Virus record (IMG/VR): IMGVR_UViG_3300010401_000005
Coordinates: 6,113-70,112 of that record
Length of the DNA stretch: 64,000 nt
Origin: a virus
Strand: one strand, 5' to 3'
Positions 3,300-49,692 of this stretch are shown here, piece by piece (position 1 is the stretch's first letter; the number at the start of each line of letters is the position of its first letter). Made by a program: the position numbers and the translations under genes. Under the pieces are notes generated by a model that searched no databases, was not told where the DNA came from, and saw nothing but the letters and a program-made list of their open reading frames with translations.

Positions 3300-3760
3300 G
3301 TGCGGCCCCTGGTGCCCCAGAAGAAACCTATTCCAGTAGACTCGTATTGATTGTAATAGTTCTATAAGGCTTTCGCCTATACCCTCTCCCTGCCGTTCCT
3401 CGCTTCTCTCCCTCTCCTCCCTCAACAGTAGCGTCGGTTCCCCTTGTCCTTGTCCAGCCCGGAGAAAAGTTCTCTGAGTAGGTGCAGACCACCCGGCGAT
3501 GTTTAGGCAAATGCCTCCTGTCCGGGTCAGGTTCAAAAGTGTTACTGTGTCGGTCGTGTTGGTCGCTTCGCTTCGGGCCTCTTGCGAGGCAGGCACTCCT
3601 TTTCAGAAGAACGCTTGCGCGTCGGTCGTCGGACTCTTACCGAGGTACTTTCGTAGACCGCTTTCGATGATTCCCGCAGGGCAATGACCCTGTAATGGAC
3701 ACCTATCCCCCATCCGGTCGTGAACCCGGATTACATGATCTTCAGGGGCGAAACTCTTTT
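3300..3760 (-). ncRNA. candidate ~450-nt structured RNA rich in GNRA-capped hairpins
   Basis: ~580-bp gap with no credible gene; minus-strand hairpins TAC-GAAA-GTA, ACGC-GCAA-GCGT, CTTCT-GAAA-AGGAG, GCCTC-GCAA-GAGGC, TATAGGC-GAAA-GCCTTATA; long-range TAGGTG/CACCTA pairing; ends approximate. Confidence 0.55.
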
Positions 3761-9599: not shown

Positions 9600-11018
9600 T
9601 TATAACGCCTCCATCAGACTTTCAAAGATCCTTTGTGCGAGAAGACAAGGAATCCCGTTCCCTATGATCGTAGTCGCAAGAGATGCCTTGTCAGGTAAAG
9701 GGTAGGTATCGGGTACGCTCTGGAATCGCGCTAACGCTCTCGGCGTCATGGAGACGACCCTTCCCATTTCCAGCCAGGCACGGAACGGATGTTTCTCCAT
9801 GCTTGCGGTGAGGGTCGGAGTCGGCGCCGCCGACTCCGCTATCTGGAGATCGCCTGCATAGTTTGCGGGTTTGCCGTCTACCAAAAACGCCCTTTGATTT
9901 GCGTTGCGTCCGGAGGCGACTTGCGCAGCGGCGGACCCCGCCGCTGCGCGGAGTTCCATTGTGGAGGATTCGTTTGCAAGGAATGCCCGAAACACTCTTC
10001 CGCCTTCCGCCGCCTTGATCGTTGTTGCAGGCTCTTTGCTGAGGCGAACGGTGTCCCACCGTTCGCCTGCCGCGTCTCCGTCCATCAGAAAAGCGCGGTG
10101 CTTGTCCATGCCGTGATTGGCTGTCAGACAGGCGGCAGAACCTGCCGCCTGTCTTGCTGACGAACCCTCACCGTTCGGTATCATCAGGATAGCGCGGGGT
10201 ATATTTGCCTGTCGCCGTCCACATTGCGAGGCTGTCAGCGTGTGGCATGGTTCTGCTGACGTTCGGAGCGTCGCGTCTCTGACTGTGTTCTGCATTTCTA
10301 CCAAAACGCTTTCCAATAGTTCGACAGGAAGTCTCTTTAACTGCCAATCAGCAAACTTCGACGACGGCAAGGTATCAATCAGATCCTCTATCGCCGCATA
10401 CCATCCCACCCACCGAGGCGTAAGCGGCACATCGTCAAACAGTCCCGCCGTCATAGGTTTCTCACTGTGCGTCGGTCGTAGCGGCGGTACGGAACCTTTC
10501 AGGACCGCTCGCAATATCAGGCGTTCTCTTGTCTGCGGGACTCCGAAGTCGGCGGCATTCAAGACGCCTTCCGTCCACTGATAGCCACACTCCGATAACG
10601 CACGTCGTATTCGTGCCATGCTCTCGGATCTCTGGTATTTGCGGACGTTCTCCAGCGTGAAGAATCTCGGTTTTAGGACACGAAGGAAGGAGCAGACACC
10701 TTCGGCGGATTCGATGTCTTCCGGCAGTTCCACCCCTCCCGAATTGGCGAGAGAGAAACTTTTACAGACCGGCGACGCATGACCGAATAGAGGTCTCTCC
10801 TCCTTGCGCCAATTGACGCACTGGACAGGCATTGTCAGCACATGCGGACCTACAGCGGAGGCGTAGTGCGCGGAAATGGCAGGGTCGTACTCAACAGCAC
10901 GGATAGGGGTTAAGCCTGCCGCTATTGCGCCGATGTCACATAAGCCGCCGCCTGAAAATAAGGTTGTGATCGTGCCTGCTGTCAATGTGTCGTTCTCCTC
11001 AATCAAATCCTCAAACAT
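9600..11018 (-). CDS. DNA (cytosine-5) methyltransferase with repeated variable region
   Basis: motif I LFSGGG, IV SPVCKSFS, VI LENV, VIII PQTRER, IX RFQS, X IGNG. Confidence 0.92.
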   Translation of the reverse strand: MFEDLIEENDTLTAGTITTLFSGGGLCDIGAIAAGLTPIRAVEYDPAISAHYASAVGPHVLTMPVQCVNWRKEERPLFGHASPVCKSFSLANSGGVELPEDIESAEGVCSFLRVLKPRFFTLENVRKYQRSESMARIRRALSECGYQWTEGVLNAADFGVPQTRERLILRAVLKGSVPPLRPTHSEKPMTAGLFDDVPLTPRWVGWYAAIEDLIDTLPSSKFADWQLKRLPVELLESVLVEMQNTVRDATLRTSAEPCHTLTASQCGRRQANIPRAILMIPNGEGSSARQAAGSAACLTANHGMDKHRAFLMDGDAAGERWDTVRLSKEPATTIKAAEGGRVFRAFLANESSTMELRAAAGSAAAQVASGRNANQRAFLVDGKPANYAGDLQIAESAAPTPTLTASMEKHPFRAWLEMGRVVSMTPRALARFQSVPDTYPLPDKASLATTIIGNGIPCLLAQRIFESLMEAL

Positions 11019-11626
11019 GGTTGCGCCAGGGTATCCCTCACCAATCCCACCGTCTCCCGCGCAAACTTGTTCAGGGTTGTACCATCCGCGCTATCCACGC
11101 CCGCTGATTGGCACAACCGCAACCGCCTCCGTGTATTTACCCGCCCAACATGGACCCGGATACCGAGAGGGTGAAAGAACTCCGTCGCTGCGTGGATGTT
11201 GGACTCTTTCCATGCCGTCGAACCTGCCACAAACACCCAATCAGGGGAGAAGTCCAACACCTGCGCGAAGTCACATCCATCCTGCAACGCTATCGCTACG
11301 TTCAACCCTCTCCCGCGCAGTAGGGGCAGGTAGAGAGAGGCGAGTTCCACGGTTCGCGACCAATCGGCAACGGCGTCGGGTAGTAGCACCCATTCGGGCT
11401 GTCTGTCCTGTGTGGAGACTTTATCCAGCATTCCCAGATAGGCGCAGTGCATTGCTTCATCCCAGACTTTGCCCTTTGTCCAAGCCGCGAAGACTCCGTT
11501 ATCACAGGCATAGGGGCAGAAGGGCGTTCGCCAGCTCTCTGGGGTGTAAAGCATCCCTAAATCTTGTATGTGGGCATTCATCCCAACATAGGACGGAAAC
11601 CCTTTTGCCCCCATGAAATACTGCAT
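11003..11626 (-). CDS. TGT/DpdA-like TIM-barrel protein (putative base-exchange enzyme)
   Basis: ACDNGVF, PDAVAD, LQDG, VAGSTAWK, VHVGRVN, GVDSADGT resemble tRNA-guanine transglycosylase-fold motifs. Confidence 0.6.
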   Translation of the reverse strand: MQYFMGAKGFPSYVGMNAHIQDLGMLYTPESWRTPFCPYACDNGVFAAWTKGKVWDEAMHCAYLGMLDKVSTQDRQPEWVLLPDAVADWSRTVELASLYLPLLRGRGLNVAIALQDGCDFAQVLDFSPDWVFVAGSTAWKESNIHAATEFFHPLGIRVHVGRVNTRRRLRLCQSAGVDSADGTTLNKFARETVGLVRDTLAQPCLRI

Positions 11627-11847
11627 CAGAGTAACCGCGTTTTTGCGTCGTCTACAATTGCCTGCATCATGTCAAGGTAGTTTTGAGCGTCCCTGAGATC
11701 CTTACTCGCCTTGTCCTTTTCGTTGCGATGCTCTGCCCGCTTTGTCAATAGGTGTACCCATTGGCCTAATTCTGCGATGGTATAGGCTTGCCATGCGTTC
11801 GGCTTGTAGTTCGGTTCATCCTTGATAATGCTGCGCGGTGTTTTCAT
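11626..11847 (-). CDS. small helical protein (DUF3310-like pattern)
   Basis: KRAEHR...KDLRDAQNYL; GAGGAG RBS; TGATG coupling to the TGT-like gene. Confidence 0.6.
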   Translation of the reverse strand: MKTPRSIIKDEPNYKPNAWQAYTIAELGQWVHLLTKRAEHRNEKDKASKDLRDAQNYLDMMQAIVDDAKTRLL

Positions 11848-11929
11848 TTGTTCTCCTCAATCAAAACCCCCAATACCCACCGAAACCCCCTCTGACGTGT
11901 CCCTTGTGGTGGATGCTGTCCATTTACAA

Positions 11930-12377
11930 ATGCTAAAACCAACGTGAGGACTTGAACCTCCCCGACATAAACGGTTCCACTCTTGCGAGGCGTTGGTTCC
12001 CGGATTCCGTCTGGCCTAGCCATCCGTGTCGTCTCCCGGCGAAGACATTTCCCGCGAGGTTGCGAATCCTCGTCACGCTATCGGGAACAGGTTTCGATAG
12101 AACGGACTCCCCTCCGTTCGGCGTTTACTTTTTAGCCGTGCCTCTCGTACCTCAATCATGGGCAGGAGACGTTTGATCGACCTTGCGGTTCATTCCGCAC
12201 TCTTGAAAGCCTAGTGTCTCAAGGCCATACGCCGCGATGCTCTCCAGCACCGCTACCGTCAGCATTTACTGCTGAGAATTCTTCAAATCAGAGCGAGTAG
12301 ACTCAACCCGTCCCGGTTGTCTTTGCCGCCTACTCGCCGCCTGCACGGATCTGTCTCCAAGATCCTGATGTGCAAGA
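11930..12377 (-). ncRNA. candidate ~450-nt multi-domain structured RNA with tRNA-like 3' domain
   Basis: >10 consecutive hairpins, long-range CGTCTCC/GGAGACG helix, 3' GAGG-TTCAAGT-CCTC T-arm closed by AACCAACG/CGTTGGTT. Confidence 0.7.
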
Positions 12378-12776
12378 TTACAGAGACGCTACCAGTTCCC
12401 GCAGTTCCTCTTCGGACTTGCCCTCCAACGCCTCATTCTGCTTGCGGTGGATGATCTCAAGGATCTGCTGCTTCTTCTCCGAATTGGCCCGCAGGGTCTC
12501 TGCCGCTTCCTCTGCCACCTGTCGGACTTCAATGACGCGCAGAACGATGTCGAACTTGAGTTTCAGAATCTCGTTCGGCCTGGTCGCCTTCTTCACGAAT
12601 GATGTGGTTCCGGCATCCTGAATCTGCTTGTTCAGGTTCACCGCCAGCGTATCCAGGTCAACGCGGTTCGGGCGGTTTGTCGTCAGCGGGAGATCCCAGA
12701 GGTCTTCCACGGACAGCGGTCCCTGCGTCGTCTCGAACCGAATCTTCTGCTGCGATGCTTGTTCAAAAATGCTCAT
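12378..12776 (-). CDS. conserved phage coiled-coil hypothetical protein
   Basis: IFEQAS..KIRF....G.LSVEDLWDLPL pattern recalled from phage hypotheticals; AGGAG RBS. Confidence 0.85.
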   Translation of the reverse strand: MSIFEQASQQKIRFETTQGPLSVEDLWDLPLTTNRPNRVDLDTLAVNLNKQIQDAGTTSFVKKATRPNEILKLKFDIVLRVIEVRQVAEEAAETLRANSEKKQQILEIIHRKQNEALEGKSEEELRELVASL

Positions 12777-12787
12777 TGTTTTTCTCC

Positions 12788-14830
12788 TTAAAAGATGACT
12801 TTCAACACCTGGTTAAAGGAACCGGAAACCTTTACCACGATGCTATTGCGTTGTGTGGACGAAAAGCCCAAACCGGACAGTTGTTCGTCACTGTTCTCCG
12901 TCCTCATGCGACTTCCGACGATCTCCATAGTCTTGCGATGTGTCTCCAGTTCGGAGGTCAGGAACTCATTGTAAAAGCCTCGTGCCGTACCGTCATTTTT
13001 GCACCCGTCCAGCATGAAGAAGAAGTGCTTGTTCCCCACGCCTCTGCCGTCCCAGAAGTTCGGAGAAAGCATCAACGCCGACACGCGGGTAAACTGCTGC
13101 GTTTTGATTCCCCATTTCTCCCGTGTAGCCTGCGAGGATTGCAGGACAGGGACGACCTCGATTCCCTGCTCGGTGACGTTCAGTTTTGCTACCTCGACAG
13201 TGCCGGTAACGGGCTTTTCGTAGGAGAAAGAATAAACGGTTCCGAGGACATCTATCTCCACGTCAAAACCGACATCCACCGATTCGCGCTTTCGGTATTG
13301 GTTGACGACAAGGGAATAGGTTCCTTTTGCCATAGTCGCCTTAGTACCGTAGAAAATGTTCTCTACCGCGTTTCTGACAAGGACACCGCTCACGTTCATA
13401 TCCACGTCCAGACGCCCGCCCGTTCGCGGACTGTGCTTGTTGGCATAGTGAACATGGAAACCGCCCGCCTCTCGCATGTGAAGATCCAAGTCATCGGTAT
13501 TCCACCACGCCAACCGACAGCACACATCTCCGGTAACGTTCCCACCCGCCGCCTTCACCTTCTCCTTGATGCTATCCGCCACATCGCCCGCATACGACCA
13601 CGAAAACGGGTTCGGCCATTTGAACAGGTTCTTTGCGGTCAGGTCGAACGGCGCAATCAAAGAGACAAGATTGCTGACGTGCTTGTTCTCAAACAGAACT
13701 TCCAGGCTTTCCGCAGTTGGCAGGATGTCCGCAAGGAACTTCTCTATCCCGATTTCCTCCACCCTATCAAAGTTCTTTGCCGCCTGTCCTTTTGTGGGAA
13801 GGGTATCGAACACATCCCCGGCAAGACGGTTCCTGATATTCCTATCTGCGAACAGGACATTCGTTATATTGATGTCCTCCAGTCGCGCATAACGCCGGTC
13901 AAGGGATTCCAACAGCCCCAAGCTTTCGAGTGTCACCTTCGCCGCATCCTTCATGCGAGGAGTAATCAGGGCAGTCGGACGCTTGTAATTCGTACCGCTC
14001 ACCTTGTCCTCGAAACTTTTGACGGCTTTCTCCAAGTCAACGCCCTCGGACAGGTCAACAAGCAAAGTCCCGATCACGTCGTTTCGGAAGCGGCAGGCAA
14101 ACGCATTCGGCCCGACCACCTGAGACCACGCGAAGAGATCCTGCGCTTTGTCGCCGGTAACGTTATCGAAATCCCTCTTCATCTGAGCGAAGGTATCCAA
14201 GACGGCTTTCTTCTCCGCGCCCCGATAGAGGCTGTTTTGAGCGATCAAATCCTGCACCGTCTCAATCGTATCTGTGGTGATCTCTTGCAAACCTCTCAGA
14301 CAAACATCGTGCGCCGAACGATAGTCAGACCATTTCGGGCCACGCAGCGCCGCCGAACAGTAGAGGTTTTGGGGCAGGCTTAGGTTGAAATGATCCCACG
14401 TCAGAACATTCCCGCTGCTCTCCTCAAAGTTCCTGCCCTGTCCTACATGCCCCTCGAAGTGCAGGAATACGTTGCTGATGGGTAGACTTCGGACGTACTC
14501 TGCCAGTGCGTCCACAACTGGCTGATACCCCGGTACAGCCATGTCCCAGAGCGTTTGCACTTCGCCATGCAAAATCGTCACCATACCGCCCGCGTTCTTG
14601 ACAAACGACCGGCACCCGGAACAATCGTGTTCGGTGCGCTCTCGAAACATGGGGTTTGTCCCTTCCGGGAACGAGGCAAGGTAGATGCGCCAGATTTCGT
14701 CTTTGTCGATCTCTGCCTGAAAGATCGGTAGACCTTTCATTTCGTTGAATCGTCGCTGAACTGCCAGTTGGATGTCCTGAAAGTTCAGCTTTTTAACATC
14801 GGTCTCCGCTTTTGTTTGTGTTACTGTCAT
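12788..14830 (-). CDS. large conserved phage protein (HDCxxC motif; C-terminal YfaP/DUF2135-like domain)
   Basis: YLASFPEG..P.FRERTEHDCSGCRSF; W.NTDDLDLH...LDVDMN...AVENI; start MTVTQ after RBS. Confidence 0.85.
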   Translation of the reverse strand: MTVTQTKAETDVKKLNFQDIQLAVQRRFNEMKGLPIFQAEIDKDEIWRIYLASFPEGTNPMFRERTEHDCSGCRSFVKNAGGMVTILHGEVQTLWDMAVPGYQPVVDALAEYVRSLPISNVFLHFEGHVGQGRNFEESSGNVLTWDHFNLSLPQNLYCSAALRGPKWSDYRSAHDVCLRGLQEITTDTIETVQDLIAQNSLYRGAEKKAVLDTFAQMKRDFDNVTGDKAQDLFAWSQVVGPNAFACRFRNDVIGTLLVDLSEGVDLEKAVKSFEDKVSGTNYKRPTALITPRMKDAAKVTLESLGLLESLDRRYARLEDINITNVLFADRNIRNRLAGDVFDTLPTKGQAAKNFDRVEEIGIEKFLADILPTAESLEVLFENKHVSNLVSLIAPFDLTAKNLFKWPNPFSWSYAGDVADSIKEKVKAAGGNVTGDVCCRLAWWNTDDLDLHMREAGGFHVHYANKHSPRTGGRLDVDMNVSGVLVRNAVENIFYGTKATMAKGTYSLVVNQYRKRESVDVGFDVEIDVLGTVYSFSYEKPVTGTVEVAKLNVTEQGIEVVPVLQSSQATREKWGIKTQQFTRVSALMLSPNFWDGRGVGNKHFFFMLDGCKNDGTARGFYNEFLTSELETHRKTMEIVGSRMRTENSDEQLSGLGFSSTQRNSIVVKVSGSFNQVLKVIF

Positions 14831-14857
14831 TCGTCTCTCTTTTCCTTTCACACAAGA

Positions 14858-46336: not shown

Positions 46337-46462
46337 ACCTTGCAGGGGAAATGCGTAAGACGGGATGGTCCGCTATGATCGAGCGGGGCTTCGCGAAACG
46401 GGGCATTCCAGCAGTTCGAGTCTGCATTCCTGATCCTTACGCCGGGTAGAGGAAGAGGGGAC
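46337..46462 (+). ncRNA. cloverleaf tRNA-like small RNA
   Basis: TGGTATAAT at 46322-46330; arms CCGCT/AGCGG, CTTCG/CGGGG, T-arm GCAG-TTCGAGT-CTGC; closing stems CGGGA/TCCTG and GCGTAAG/CTTACGC. Confidence 0.62.
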
Positions 46463-49592: not shown

Positions 49593-49692
49593 TGCATTCT
49601 CCTTTCAATGCGCCTTCGTTTAAGTTGTTACCGGGCAGAGCGGCGAAGGAAAGACCGCCTCTTCGGGCTGCACTCCCTAGCCCGGTAACGCA
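49593..49692 (-). promoter_or_regulatory. head-operon cis-RNA motif copy C (divergent)
   Basis: GTTACCGGGC/GCCCGGTAAC stem, TAGG...CCGAAG junction, inner loop CCTTCG complementary to downstream CGAAGG. Confidence 0.5.

What the first reader, a model, noticed from the sequence alone, without database searches (positions are those of the whole stretch)
11930..12377. Large multi-domain ncRNA with a tRNA-like (T-arm plus acceptor) 3' domain, embedded in an operon
Seen on the minus strand, starting right at the stop of the 132-aa gene: TGCAC..GGATCT/AGATCC-GTGCA (12342-12374); GCGAGTAGGC/GTCTACTCGC (12293-12337); TCAGCA-GTAAA-TGCTGA (12259-12275); GCGGTGCT-GGAG-AGCATCGC (12234-12253); CTTGAGA/TTTCAAG; TGCGG/CCGCA. 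A long-range CGTCTCC(12171-12165)/GGAGACG(12036-12030) helix encloses about five more hairpins (e.g. GAACGGA/TCCGTTC, CTATCG/CGATAG, CGAGG/CCTCG). The last domain is closed by AACCAACG/CGTTGGTT (11937-11998) and contains a GCAA tetraloop and a canonical T-loop GAGG-TTCAAGT-CCTC. Almost the whole gap is helical. Known: large phage ncRNAs (GOLLD, ROOL) and tRNA-mimicking Y RNA/tmRNA exist, but I do not recognise this as any of them. Inference: a new large RNA, possibly RNase P-processed and possibly a partner of the upstream 680-aa and 132-aa proteins.
Basis: partly seen in the sequence, partly recalled or inferred. Interest (0 to 1): 0.82.

Follow-up and report, generated by a model that had tools for sequence, protein, structure and literature searches.

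The report
Conserved structured RNA in phage operon
A 530-base gene-free stretch in a soil phage genome holds a folded RNA element whose central part recurs in other environmental samples, but its supposed tRNA-like end and its link to the neighbouring proteins are not supported.

Summary
Only the 5' part is more than chance. Windows within 12080-12360 fold better than shuffles (z -1.8 to -2.3), and 12024-12377 gives z -2.81. The 3' "tRNA-like" domain does not stand out: z -0.23, no Rfam or default ARAGORN hit, and the T-loop motif is expected 0.70 times by chance.

Three other metagenome runs each hold one 151-nt contig matching only 12107-12282 at about 90% identity. These carry 1-nt indels, one G-C to A-U and one C-G to U-A double change, loss of both partners of one pair, and a 5-nt insertion inside a loop.

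No homolog appeared in Rfam, phage or plasmid records, IMG/VR, GTDB genomes or 249 fetched loci. Homologs of the 687-aa (DUF8224) and 132-aa pair almost never have such a gap: 73 of 76 have the next ORF within 211 nt.

Verdict: probably a real, lineage-restricted structured RNA of unknown function, most likely a cis-acting segment of the operon transcript. It is not tRNA-like and not a partner of the upstream proteins. A conserved 37-aa ORF is a live rival.

The parts
12340..12376 (-). Hairpin H1 (7 bp + 6 bp), starting 2 nt after the TAA stop of the 132-aa gene
   Evidence: Sequence; MFE helices 12376-12370/12346-12340 and 12365-12360/12352-12347. No comparative data.
12293..12337 (-). Hairpin H2: 10-bp stem with one G.U enclosing a 5-bp inner hairpin, followed by a weak U-containing tail
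   Evidence: Part of it was flagged as a weak terminator-like site. No comparative data.
12107..12282 (-). Conserved core: the stretch matched at about 90% identity by one 151-nt contig in each of three other runs (X2 12107-12252, X3 12121-12252, X4 12149-12282)
   Evidence: table 8. The differences are 1-nt indels and substitutions (tables 3, 4).
12259..12275 (-). Hairpin H3 (6 bp, loop GUAAA)
   Evidence: X4 carries 5 extra bases inside the loop and the stem is unchanged.
12234..12253 (-). Hairpin H4 (8 bp, loop GGAG)
   Evidence: The closing pair G12253-C12234 is A-U in X4.
12202..12223 (-). Hairpin H5 (7 bp with one G.U, 8-nt loop CACUAGGC)
   Evidence: No difference is listed in X2-X4, but hides 9 rows.
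12184..12199 (-). Hairpin H6 (5 bp, loop AAUGAA)
   Evidence: The only listed change (12191, in X3 and X4) lies in the loop.
12170..12183 (-). Unpaired junction AGGUCGAUCAAACG. No difference is listed for 12172-12183. The variable zone begins at 12171 (changed in X2; one base inserted behind it in X3)
   Evidence: Its 9-bp complementarity to 11857-11865, just 5' of the ribosome-binding site of the 73-aa gene, is at chance level (my estimate is about 1 expected).
12143..12169 (-). Variable hairpin H7 (4 + 4 + 2 bp)
   Evidence: X2 and X3 lack both 12162 and 12151, the two sides of a C-G pair. X2 turns C-G into U-A (12161/12150) and G.U into G-C (12149). The hairpin refolds in both variants.
12100..12119 (-). 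Hairpin H8 (7 bp GAACGGA/UCCGUUC)
   Evidence: X2 covers 12107-12119 with no listed difference.
11937..11998 (-).
   Evidence: It folds as drawn, but z is -0.23. No Rfam hit at E<=10. No ARAGORN call at default settings; it appears only as a metazoan-mitochondrial-type call or at lowered thresholds.
12152..12265 (-). 37-aa ORF overlapping the conserved core (rival reading)
   Evidence: Its codon score of 0.158 is above the 95th percentile (0.081) of 125 spurious ORFs. The Atlas holds the same sequence but shows no usable look-alike. PHROGs gives E 0.065 only.
11844..12023 (-). 59-aa ORF whose stop overlaps the start of the 73-aa gene (ATGA); coding status open
   Evidence: There are 2 borderline hits (E 2.9e-4 and 6.4e-4, to proteins of 2998 and 567 aa) among 1.84 billion representatives. 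Its codon score of 0.026 is ambiguous.
12378..12776 (-). Upstream 132-aa gene (phrog_2018, function unknown)
12788..14851 (-). Upstream 687-aa gene (phrog_1735; DUF8224 by Atlas look-alikes), with a TerD-like beta-sandwich domain in the model
11003..11847 (-). Downstream 73-aa gene and 207-aa TIM-barrel gene (tRNA-guanine transglycosylase among the best fold matches), followed by a C5 DNA methyltransferase (9600-11018)

Best explanation
The 5' two thirds of the gap, roughly 12100-12377 on the minus strand, encode a structured RNA element with a conserved core at 12107-12282. The element belongs to a poorly sampled lineage of soil and freshwater phages. It lies inside a long run of minus-strand genes and has no recognisable promoter or strong terminator of its own. 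I therefore read it as part of the polycistronic transcript.

The most likely role (inferred, not shown) is cis-acting: a folded segment between the DUF8224/132-aa genes and the 73-aa / TGT-like TIM-barrel / C5-methyltransferase genes. H1 and H2 directly after the stop codon would act as processing or stabilising hairpins. The conserved H4-H6 hairpins and junction would be a binding site for a protein or small molecule that sets expression of the downstream genes.

Shown: the hairpins, the modest thermodynamic excess, strand preference through G.U pairs, conservation of the core in three other samples, and changes that keep the pairs. Inferred: that it is transcribed, that it acts in cis, and what it binds.

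The 3' 250 nt, including the cloverleaf-shaped piece, are not shown to belong to it.
For: 1. Fold energy. 12024-12377 on the minus strand gives -132.8 kcal/mol, z -2.81, with 1 of 100 shuffles as good. Sliding windows with z -1.8 to -2.3 occur only at 12080-12360 on the minus strand.

2. Strand. H2, H4, H5 and H7 each contain a G.U pair that would be a C.A mismatch on the plus strand. The plus-strand fold is weaker (-115.6 kcal/mol).

3. Conservation. Runs X2, X3 and X4, from three studies (freshwater, soil, soil), each hold one 151-nt contig that aligns almost end to end with 12107-12282. They show 13, 8 and 10 differences, with 5 gap columns each. Other contigs of those runs match the flanking genes only over 35-160 nt pieces.

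4. The changes fit the structure:
- G12253-C12234 becomes A-U in X4.
- C-G becomes U-A at 12161/12150 in X2.
- Both partners 12162 and 12151 are lost in X2 and X3.
- G.U becomes G-C at 12149 in X2.
- Changes at 12191 and 12156 lie in loops.
- The 5-nt insertion in X4 lies in the H3 loop.

5. Not obviously coding. The indels in 12145-12171 net -1 nt. The 4 listed substitutions inside codons 1-31 of the 37-aa ORF comprise 3 amino-acid changes plus one third-position change in an already changed codon (my reading).

6. Conservation continues past that ORF's stop, to 12107 in X2.

7. There are no iterons, no terminal inverted repeats and no GC-skew turn that would suggest an origin or a transposon.
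Against: - The comparative evidence is thin. It rests on three short contigs that may be close kin of one another, so there are perhaps only 2-3 independent compensatory events.
- Within the hypervariable zone 12139-12171, about one double hit is expected by chance (my estimate).
- hides 9 rows, and the three core contigs have 3, 2 and 5 differences that I could not see. 'No listed difference' in 12172-12232 is therefore not proof of invariance.
- The plus strand also folds with z -2.46.
- The 37-aa ORF over the core has a gene-like codon score, and its replacements (A to T, A to V, M to I) are conservative.
- No full-length homolog was recovered, so the ends of the element are unknown.
- No expression data were available.
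- For the cis-acting role in particular: the core lies about 300 nt from the next certain start codon (11847). No terminator/antiterminator or ribosome-binding-site-masking pair above chance was found. Homologs of the 207-aa gene rarely have a long ORF-free stretch upstream (2 of 122 with 200 nt or more).
Confidence: 0.45

Rival explanations
1. A free-standing, trans-acting large non-coding RNA. About 300-450 nt would be cut out of the operon transcript and act on its own, possibly as a multimer or with a protein. The 3' cloverleaf could serve as a processing or mimicry domain.
For: - The structured and conserved core is the same evidence as for the main explanation.
- The size is in the range of known large phage-associated RNAs.
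- A four-way cloverleaf shape with a UUCAAGU loop can be drawn.
- Two short palindromes (CUAG in the H5 loop, GAUC in the junction) could in principle mediate self-pairing (sequence).
Against: - No promoter-like site lies on the minus strand in the gap, and there is no convincing terminator.
- The cloverleaf is no better than shuffles and is not recognised by Rfam or by ARAGORN at default settings.
- The T-loop motif is at chance frequency.
- There is no fold signal from 11840 to 12080.
- GOLLD, ROOL, tmRNA and Y-RNA-like models give nothing at E<=10.
Confidence: 0.2
2. The conservation reflects a small protein gene. The 37-aa ORF at 12152-12265 (and perhaps the 59-aa ORF at 11844-12023) is translated, and the hairpins are incidental or only modulate its translation.
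For: - Its codon-usage score of 0.158 exceeds the 95th percentile (0.081) of 125 spurious small ORFs and is in the range of real small genes here (-0.016 to 0.267).
- An identical 37-aa record exists in the ESM Atlas, so some gene caller predicted it.
- The three replacements seen are conservative.
- The 59-aa ORF ends in an ATGA overlap with the next gene and has a GGAG about 9 nt upstream of its start.
Against: - No Shine-Dalgarno sequence precedes the ATG at 12265, and an in-frame TAA lies directly upstream.
- Two of the three replaced codons hold the two sides of one base pair (12253/12234).
- The indels shift the frame over the last 6 codons.
- Conservation continues 45 nt past the stop.
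- PHROGs and the Atlas show no relatives for the 37-aa ORF, and 1.84 billion representatives show no credible relative for the 59-aa ORF.
- A 36-codon score is noisy.
Confidence: 0.15
3. There is no RNA function. The gap is a DNA-level site (origin, packaging or protein-binding site) or decaying sequence whose hairpins arose by chance. The three contigs would then come from close relatives in which everything is similar.
For: - The z-scores are only about -2 to -3, and the plus strand is nearly as good.
- No homolog was found in any large collection.
- The contigs have depth 2-2.7.
Against: - The flanking genes are matched in the same runs only by short, more divergent pieces, while the core contigs align end to end.
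- Changes preserve pairs, and G.U pairs favour one strand.
- There are no repeats or iterons, no inverted terminal repeats and no skew change.
Confidence: 0.15

Closest known systems
Candidate structured RNAs of viral intergenic regions (Fremin and co-workers 2023, PMC10690425; I read the abstract and the passages returned)
   Same: An intergenic, phage-borne element with predicted hairpins, some covariation and no assigned function. That study lists 8495 such candidates from IMG/VR, including tRNA-like and upstream cis-regulatory ones.
   Different: I could not check whether this element is in their list, because the supplements are closed. Their method needs homologous intergenic regions inside IMG/VR. 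My four exact-pattern scans of IMG/VR found no homolog: three found nothing and one found 6 loci with no model match. It is therefore probably not among them.
GOLLD and ROOL large ornate RNAs (Rfam families; bioRxiv 10.1101/2024.12.08.627333 and PMC5737381, seen only as search listing and abstract)
   Same: Large structured RNAs that often sit in phage or prophage DNA and have no known function.
   Different: There is no covariance-model match even at E<=10. The supported part here is about 180-280 nt, not 500-800 nt. Self-assembly is untested.
tRNA mimics: tmRNA and bacterial Y-RNA-like (YrlA) RNAs
   Different: There is no hit to any Rfam family, tRNA, tmRNA and Y-RNA-like models included if the library holds them, at E<=10. 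ARAGORN calls none at default settings. A 'permuted tmRNA' appears only at an 80% threshold. None of the 10 neighbouring proteins scanned has a Ro/TROVE hit in Pfam. That YrlA accompanies Ro60 is recalled knowledge.
Riboswitch-type or protein-binding leaders in operon transcripts
   Same: Same-strand position upstream of a gene set, a conserved hairpin-and-junction core next to a variable stem, and no coding signal.
   Different: No known aptamer family matches. No closing P1-type helix or expression platform was identified. The distance to the next certain start codon is about 300 nt.

Membership tests
tRNA / tRNA-like (Rfam RF00005, clan CL00001) | Cloverleaf with D, anticodon and T arms that scores with the covariance model or a tRNA finder | tested here: not met
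   No match at E<=10 over 11600-12700. ARAGORN finds only the tRNA at 46344-46436 in the window, and nothing at default settings with introns allowed. Calls appear only at 70-90% thresholds or in metazoan-mitochondrial mode.
tRNA / tRNA-like | Fold stability or T-loop motif beyond chance | tested here: not met
   z -0.23, with 81 of 200 shuffles as good. The motif is found once against 0.70 expected.
tmRNA | tRNA-like domain plus a tag reading frame, recognised by ARAGORN or the Rfam tmRNA models | tested here: not met
   None at default settings. There is a sub-threshold 'permuted' call at ps80 only. No Rfam hit at E<=10.
GOLLD / ROOL / other Rfam large RNAs | Match to the family covariance model | tested here: not met
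   Gathering-threshold scan of the whole window finds only int-alpA at 49613-49687. The permissive scan of the region returns only two chance-level hits, snoR442 and mir-492.
Y-RNA-like (YrlA) RNA | Adjacent Ro60/Rsr (TROVE) gene and a tRNA-like module | tested here: not met
   Pfam gives no TROVE hit in the 10 neighbouring proteins scanned. No Rfam hit. The defining features are recalled knowledge.
Group I intron | Interrupts a host gene; conserved catalytic core recognised by the model | tested here: not met
   The 132-aa gene aligns with its homologs over residues 3-132 and ends at a normal stop. No Rfam intron hit at E<=10.
Structured non-coding RNA (generic) | Base pairs kept through compensatory changes in relatives | tested here: inconclusive
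   Two double changes, one paired deletion and one G.U to G-C change were seen across three short contigs. That is too few sequences for a statistical test, and 9 rows are hidden.
Structured non-coding RNA (generic) | Not protein-coding | tested here: inconclusive
   Frame-shifting indels and mostly amino-acid-changing substitutions argue against coding. The 37-aa ORF nevertheless has a gene-like codon score.
Riboswitch / cis-regulatory leader | Aptamer followed by an expression platform (terminator or ribosome-binding-site masking) before the regulated gene | tested here: inconclusive
   The strand and upstream position fit. No terminator of quality was found. Complementarity to the ribosome-binding-site region is at chance level.
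Riboswitch / cis-regulatory leader | Binds a ligand or protein | not testable with these tools
   This needs in-line probing, SHAPE or binding assays.

The most novel reading that the evidence does not exclude
A new class of phage RNA. A conserved three-hairpin-plus-junction core (12172-12253) would sense a metabolite or a phage or host protein and gate expression of a DNA-modification module (TGT-like base-exchange enzyme plus C5 methyltransferase). Alternatively, it would self-pair through its CUAG and GAUC palindromes into a higher-order RNA particle like the recently solved ornate RNAs.
Probability: 0.15. Interest if true: 0.7.

Novelty: new member of a known kind. Interest (0 to 1): 0.38.

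Why it matters
If it is real, this is one more orphan structured RNA from an under-sampled soil and freshwater phage lineage, sitting just upstream of a putative DNA-modification module. Regulatory RNAs for phage DNA-modification genes are, as far as I recall, hardly described, so a ligand- or protein-responsive element here would be worth a bench test. As it stands, the element has no function, few relatives and no expression data. The striking part of the original claim, a tRNA-mimicking domain paired with two unknown proteins, does not hold.

Tried and rejected
Homolog hunts that found nothing:
- blastn of the 530-nt gap against phage and plasmid records, and of the core against phages at E<=10, which gave 3 chance-level hits.
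- blastn and nhmmer against 81 and then 241 fetched loci.
- Model R1 against the window and L002-L250. It matched only itself; the best other hit was L163 at E 0.3.
- R1 against 10 full viral records of relatives: 0 of 10.
- Exact-pattern scans of IMG/VR: 0, 0, 6 chance loci, 0.
- A scan of GTDB genomes: 2 chance 20-mers with no extension.
- Earlier-findings look-up by sequence: none.

Other points:
- No RNA holder was listed among the sequencing runs, so I have no expression evidence either way.
- Parts of the gap outside 12107-12282 had no cover in X2-X4. I draw no conclusion from that.
- There is no paralogy with the other large gap at 3300-3760. The shared 12-mer scores E 4.1.
- The ARAGORN intron-containing 'tRNA-His' and the 'permuted tmRNA' are sub-threshold calls with poor stems and were rejected.
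- The direct 9-mer repeat 11855-11863/12150-12158 and the 9-bp junction-to-RBS pairing are at chance level by my estimate. The repeat copy inside H7 is also changed in X2-X4.
- A translation of the plus-strand 74-aa ORF found no protein sharing words.
- Large gaps after the 132-aa homolog in L012 and L060 are AT-rich strings of long hairpins, unrelated to this element.
- Structure predictions of the two neighbouring proteins gave no RNA-binding lead.
- I considered a random-mutation simulation as a null for hairpin H7 and left it out. I give analytic estimates instead.
- The supplementary tables of PMC10690425 are closed, so I could not check whether the element is among its candidates.

Full report
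**Setting.** The window is bases 6113-70112 of a 70,112-bp IMG/VR virus record with direct terminal repeats. Around the finding all long ORFs lie on the minus strand. In order they are:
- a 687-aa ORF (12788-14851; phrog_1735)
- a 132-aa ORF (12378-12776; phrog_2018)
- a 530-nt gap (11848-12377)
- a 73-aa ORF (11626-11847)
- a 207-aa ORF (11003-11626; phrog_15826)
- a C5 DNA methyltransferase (9600-11018; PF00145)

The whole gap folds with z -2.32, with 2 of 100 shuffles as good. Sliding 120-nt windows show that the excess stability lies only between 12080 and 12360 on the minus strand (z -1.8 to -2.3). From 11840 to 12080, and in the flanking genes, z is near 0.

The stretch 12024-12377 gives -132.8 kcal/mol and z -2.81 on the minus strand, against -115.6 and z -2.46 on the plus strand. 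Four helices carry a G.U pair that would be a C.A mismatch on the other strand. The 5' two thirds are therefore moderately more structured than chance, and the minus strand is favoured.

**The 'tRNA-like' domain.** The segment 11937-11998 folds into a closing helix with three small hairpins, but its energy is ordinary: z -0.23, with 81 of 200 shuffles as good.
- The T-loop consensus GGTTCRANYCC occurs once in the window against 0.70 expected.
- Rfam gives no tRNA, tmRNA or other hit in 11600-12700 even at E<=10.
- ARAGORN finds nothing there at default settings, with or without introns.
- Only lowered thresholds or the metazoan-mitochondrial mode produce calls, and these have poor stems.

The segment also lies inside a 59-aa ORF whose stop overlaps the next start codon. 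That ORF has no credible relative among 1.84 billion representatives and an ambiguous codon score. I do not accept the tRNA-mimic reading.

**Is it a companion of the neighbouring proteins?** The 687-aa protein has relatives in 553 phage records, including Caulobacter phiCbK-like phages and phages of Salmonella, Klebsiella, Serratia and Bacillus, all below 60% identity. Atlas look-alikes carry DUF8224. The pair with the 132-aa gene is kept in phiCbK, where a terminator and the next gene follow at once.

In 80 IMG/VR loci holding a 132-aa homolog, no sequence resembles the gap. Of the 76 loci with room downstream, 73 have the next same-strand ORF within 211 nt. The three exceptions were checked: L012 and L060 have AT-rich runs of long hairpins unrelated to this element, and L054 was scanned only with Rfam.

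The 207-aa protein has 42 relatives, the best at 65% identity. None of 160 fetched loci with such a gene holds similar DNA. Only 2 of 122 have 200 nt or more free of ORFs upstream. The element is therefore not tied to either gene family.

**Conservation.** A search of public runs found the probable source sample (X1) and three other runs from three studies: X2 freshwater, X3 soil and X4 soil. Each of the three holds a small share of the gap's words. Laid on 11000-13400, each gives a single 151-nt contig that aligns almost end to end with the core:

| Run | Stretch matched | Differences | Gap columns |
|---|---|---|---|
| X2 | 12107-12252 | 13 | 5 |
| X3 | 12121-12252 | 8 | 5 |
| X4 | 12149-12282 | 10 | 5 |

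Their other contigs touch the flanking genes only in pieces of 35-160 nt with more differences. No difference is listed between 12172 and 12232 except 12191. However, the table hides 9 rows, and 3, 2 and 5 differences of these contigs are unlisted. I therefore claim only that each run shares a long identical block.

**Do the changes keep the structure?** On the minus strand:
- The closing pair of H4, G12253-C12234, is A-U in X4. X2 and X3 end at 12252 and show the U at 12234.
- In H7, X2 and X3 lack both 12162 and 12151, the two sides of a C-G pair.
- X2 changes 12161 and 12150 together (C-G to U-A) and turns G12163.U12149 into G-C.
- Both variants refold into the same hairpin in a shifted register.
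- 12191 and 12156 lie in hairpin loops.
- The 5 extra bases of X4 sit in the loop of H3.
- 12233 lies in an internal loop or a weak 3-bp helix.

By a rough estimate, a compensated double hit outside the variable zone is expected about 0.01-0.02 times per contig. Inside the dense zone 12139-12171 about one double hit is expected, so the H4 event carries most of the weight. The three contigs may be close kin, so independent events are few.

**Coding rival.** A 37-aa ORF (12152-12265) covers the core. Its codon score of 0.158 is above the 95th percentile of 125 spurious ORFs, and an identical record sits in the Atlas. Several points speak against it:
- no Shine-Dalgarno sequence, and an in-frame stop directly upstream
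- 3 amino-acid changes against one third-position change among the listed substitutions in codons 1-31
- indels that shift the frame near the end of the ORF
- conservation that continues 45 nt past its stop in X2
- no relatives in PHROGs or the Atlas

I keep it as a rival at 0.15.

**Other rivals.** I found no iterons, no terminal inverted repeats and no skew turn. No sigma-70-like promoter lies on the minus strand within the gap, and there are only weak terminator-like sites. Nothing points to an origin or a mobile element. The lack of its own signals also makes a free-standing RNA gene less likely than a segment of the operon transcript.

**What it most likely is.** I read it as a structured, lineage-restricted RNA element of at least about 180 nt and perhaps about 280-350 nt, carried in the polycistronic transcript between the DUF8224/132-aa genes and the 73-aa, TIM-barrel and methyltransferase genes.

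The 207-aa protein models as a confident TIM barrel (pLDDT 94.7). tRNA-guanine transglycosylases are among its highest TM-scores (0.60-0.63), next to generic barrels. A regulatory link to a DNA-modification module is therefore conceivable, but it is inference only.

The DUF8224 model (pLDDT 80.1) has a TerD-like domain and gives no RNA lead.

**Comparison with known kinds.** It is not a member of any Rfam family. It resembles the thousands of orphan candidate structured RNAs reported from viral intergenic regions (PMC10690425, passages read). It is smaller and far less supported than GOLLD or ROOL (listing and abstracts only).

**Verdict.** I put the probability that a functional structured RNA is present at about 0.65-0.7 and my confidence in the cis-acting reading at 0.45. 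Interest is 0.38.

Noticed in passing
window 49613-49687 (-): The only Rfam gathering-level hit in the window is int-alpA RNA (RF02996, 40.7 bits, E 5.9e-05).
   Followed up: no
window 46344-46436 (+): ARAGORN calls a 93-nt tRNA-Ile (anticodon GAT) at default settings. Another first-stage note called this locus 'not a real tRNA'.
   Followed up: no
window 11003-11626 (-): The 207-aa protein (phrog_15826, no Pfam or NCBIfam hit) models as a TIM barrel with pLDDT 94.7. tRNA-guanine transglycosylase structures give the highest query TM-scores (0.60-0.63) among many generic barrels. It overlaps the start of a C5 DNA methyltransferase gene.
   Followed up: partly
window 12788-14851 (-): The 687-aa protein (phrog_1735; Atlas look-alikes carry DUF8224) has relatives in 553 phage records (Caulobacter, Salmonella, Klebsiella, Serratia, Bacillus phages and others). 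It has invariant C77 and C80 in a 22-sequence alignment. One region of the model gives fold matches to TerD (E 4e-4). Its function is unknown.
   Followed up: partly
It shares only a 12-mer with the present gap (E 4.1) and has no Rfam hit at gathering level.
   Followed up: partly
L012:4394-4970 and L060:4406-4900: Two distant relatives also have long gaps after the 132-aa homolog. These are AT-rich and fold into very long perfect hairpins (z -7.1 and -4.9). They look like terminator/promoter clusters rather than relatives of this element. L012 also has five tRNA genes upstream (300-1385).
   Followed up: partly
window 12958-13040: A short stretch inside the 687-aa gene is matched by many different contigs in all three foreign runs. 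It appears to be the most conserved nucleotide block of that gene family.
   Followed up: no
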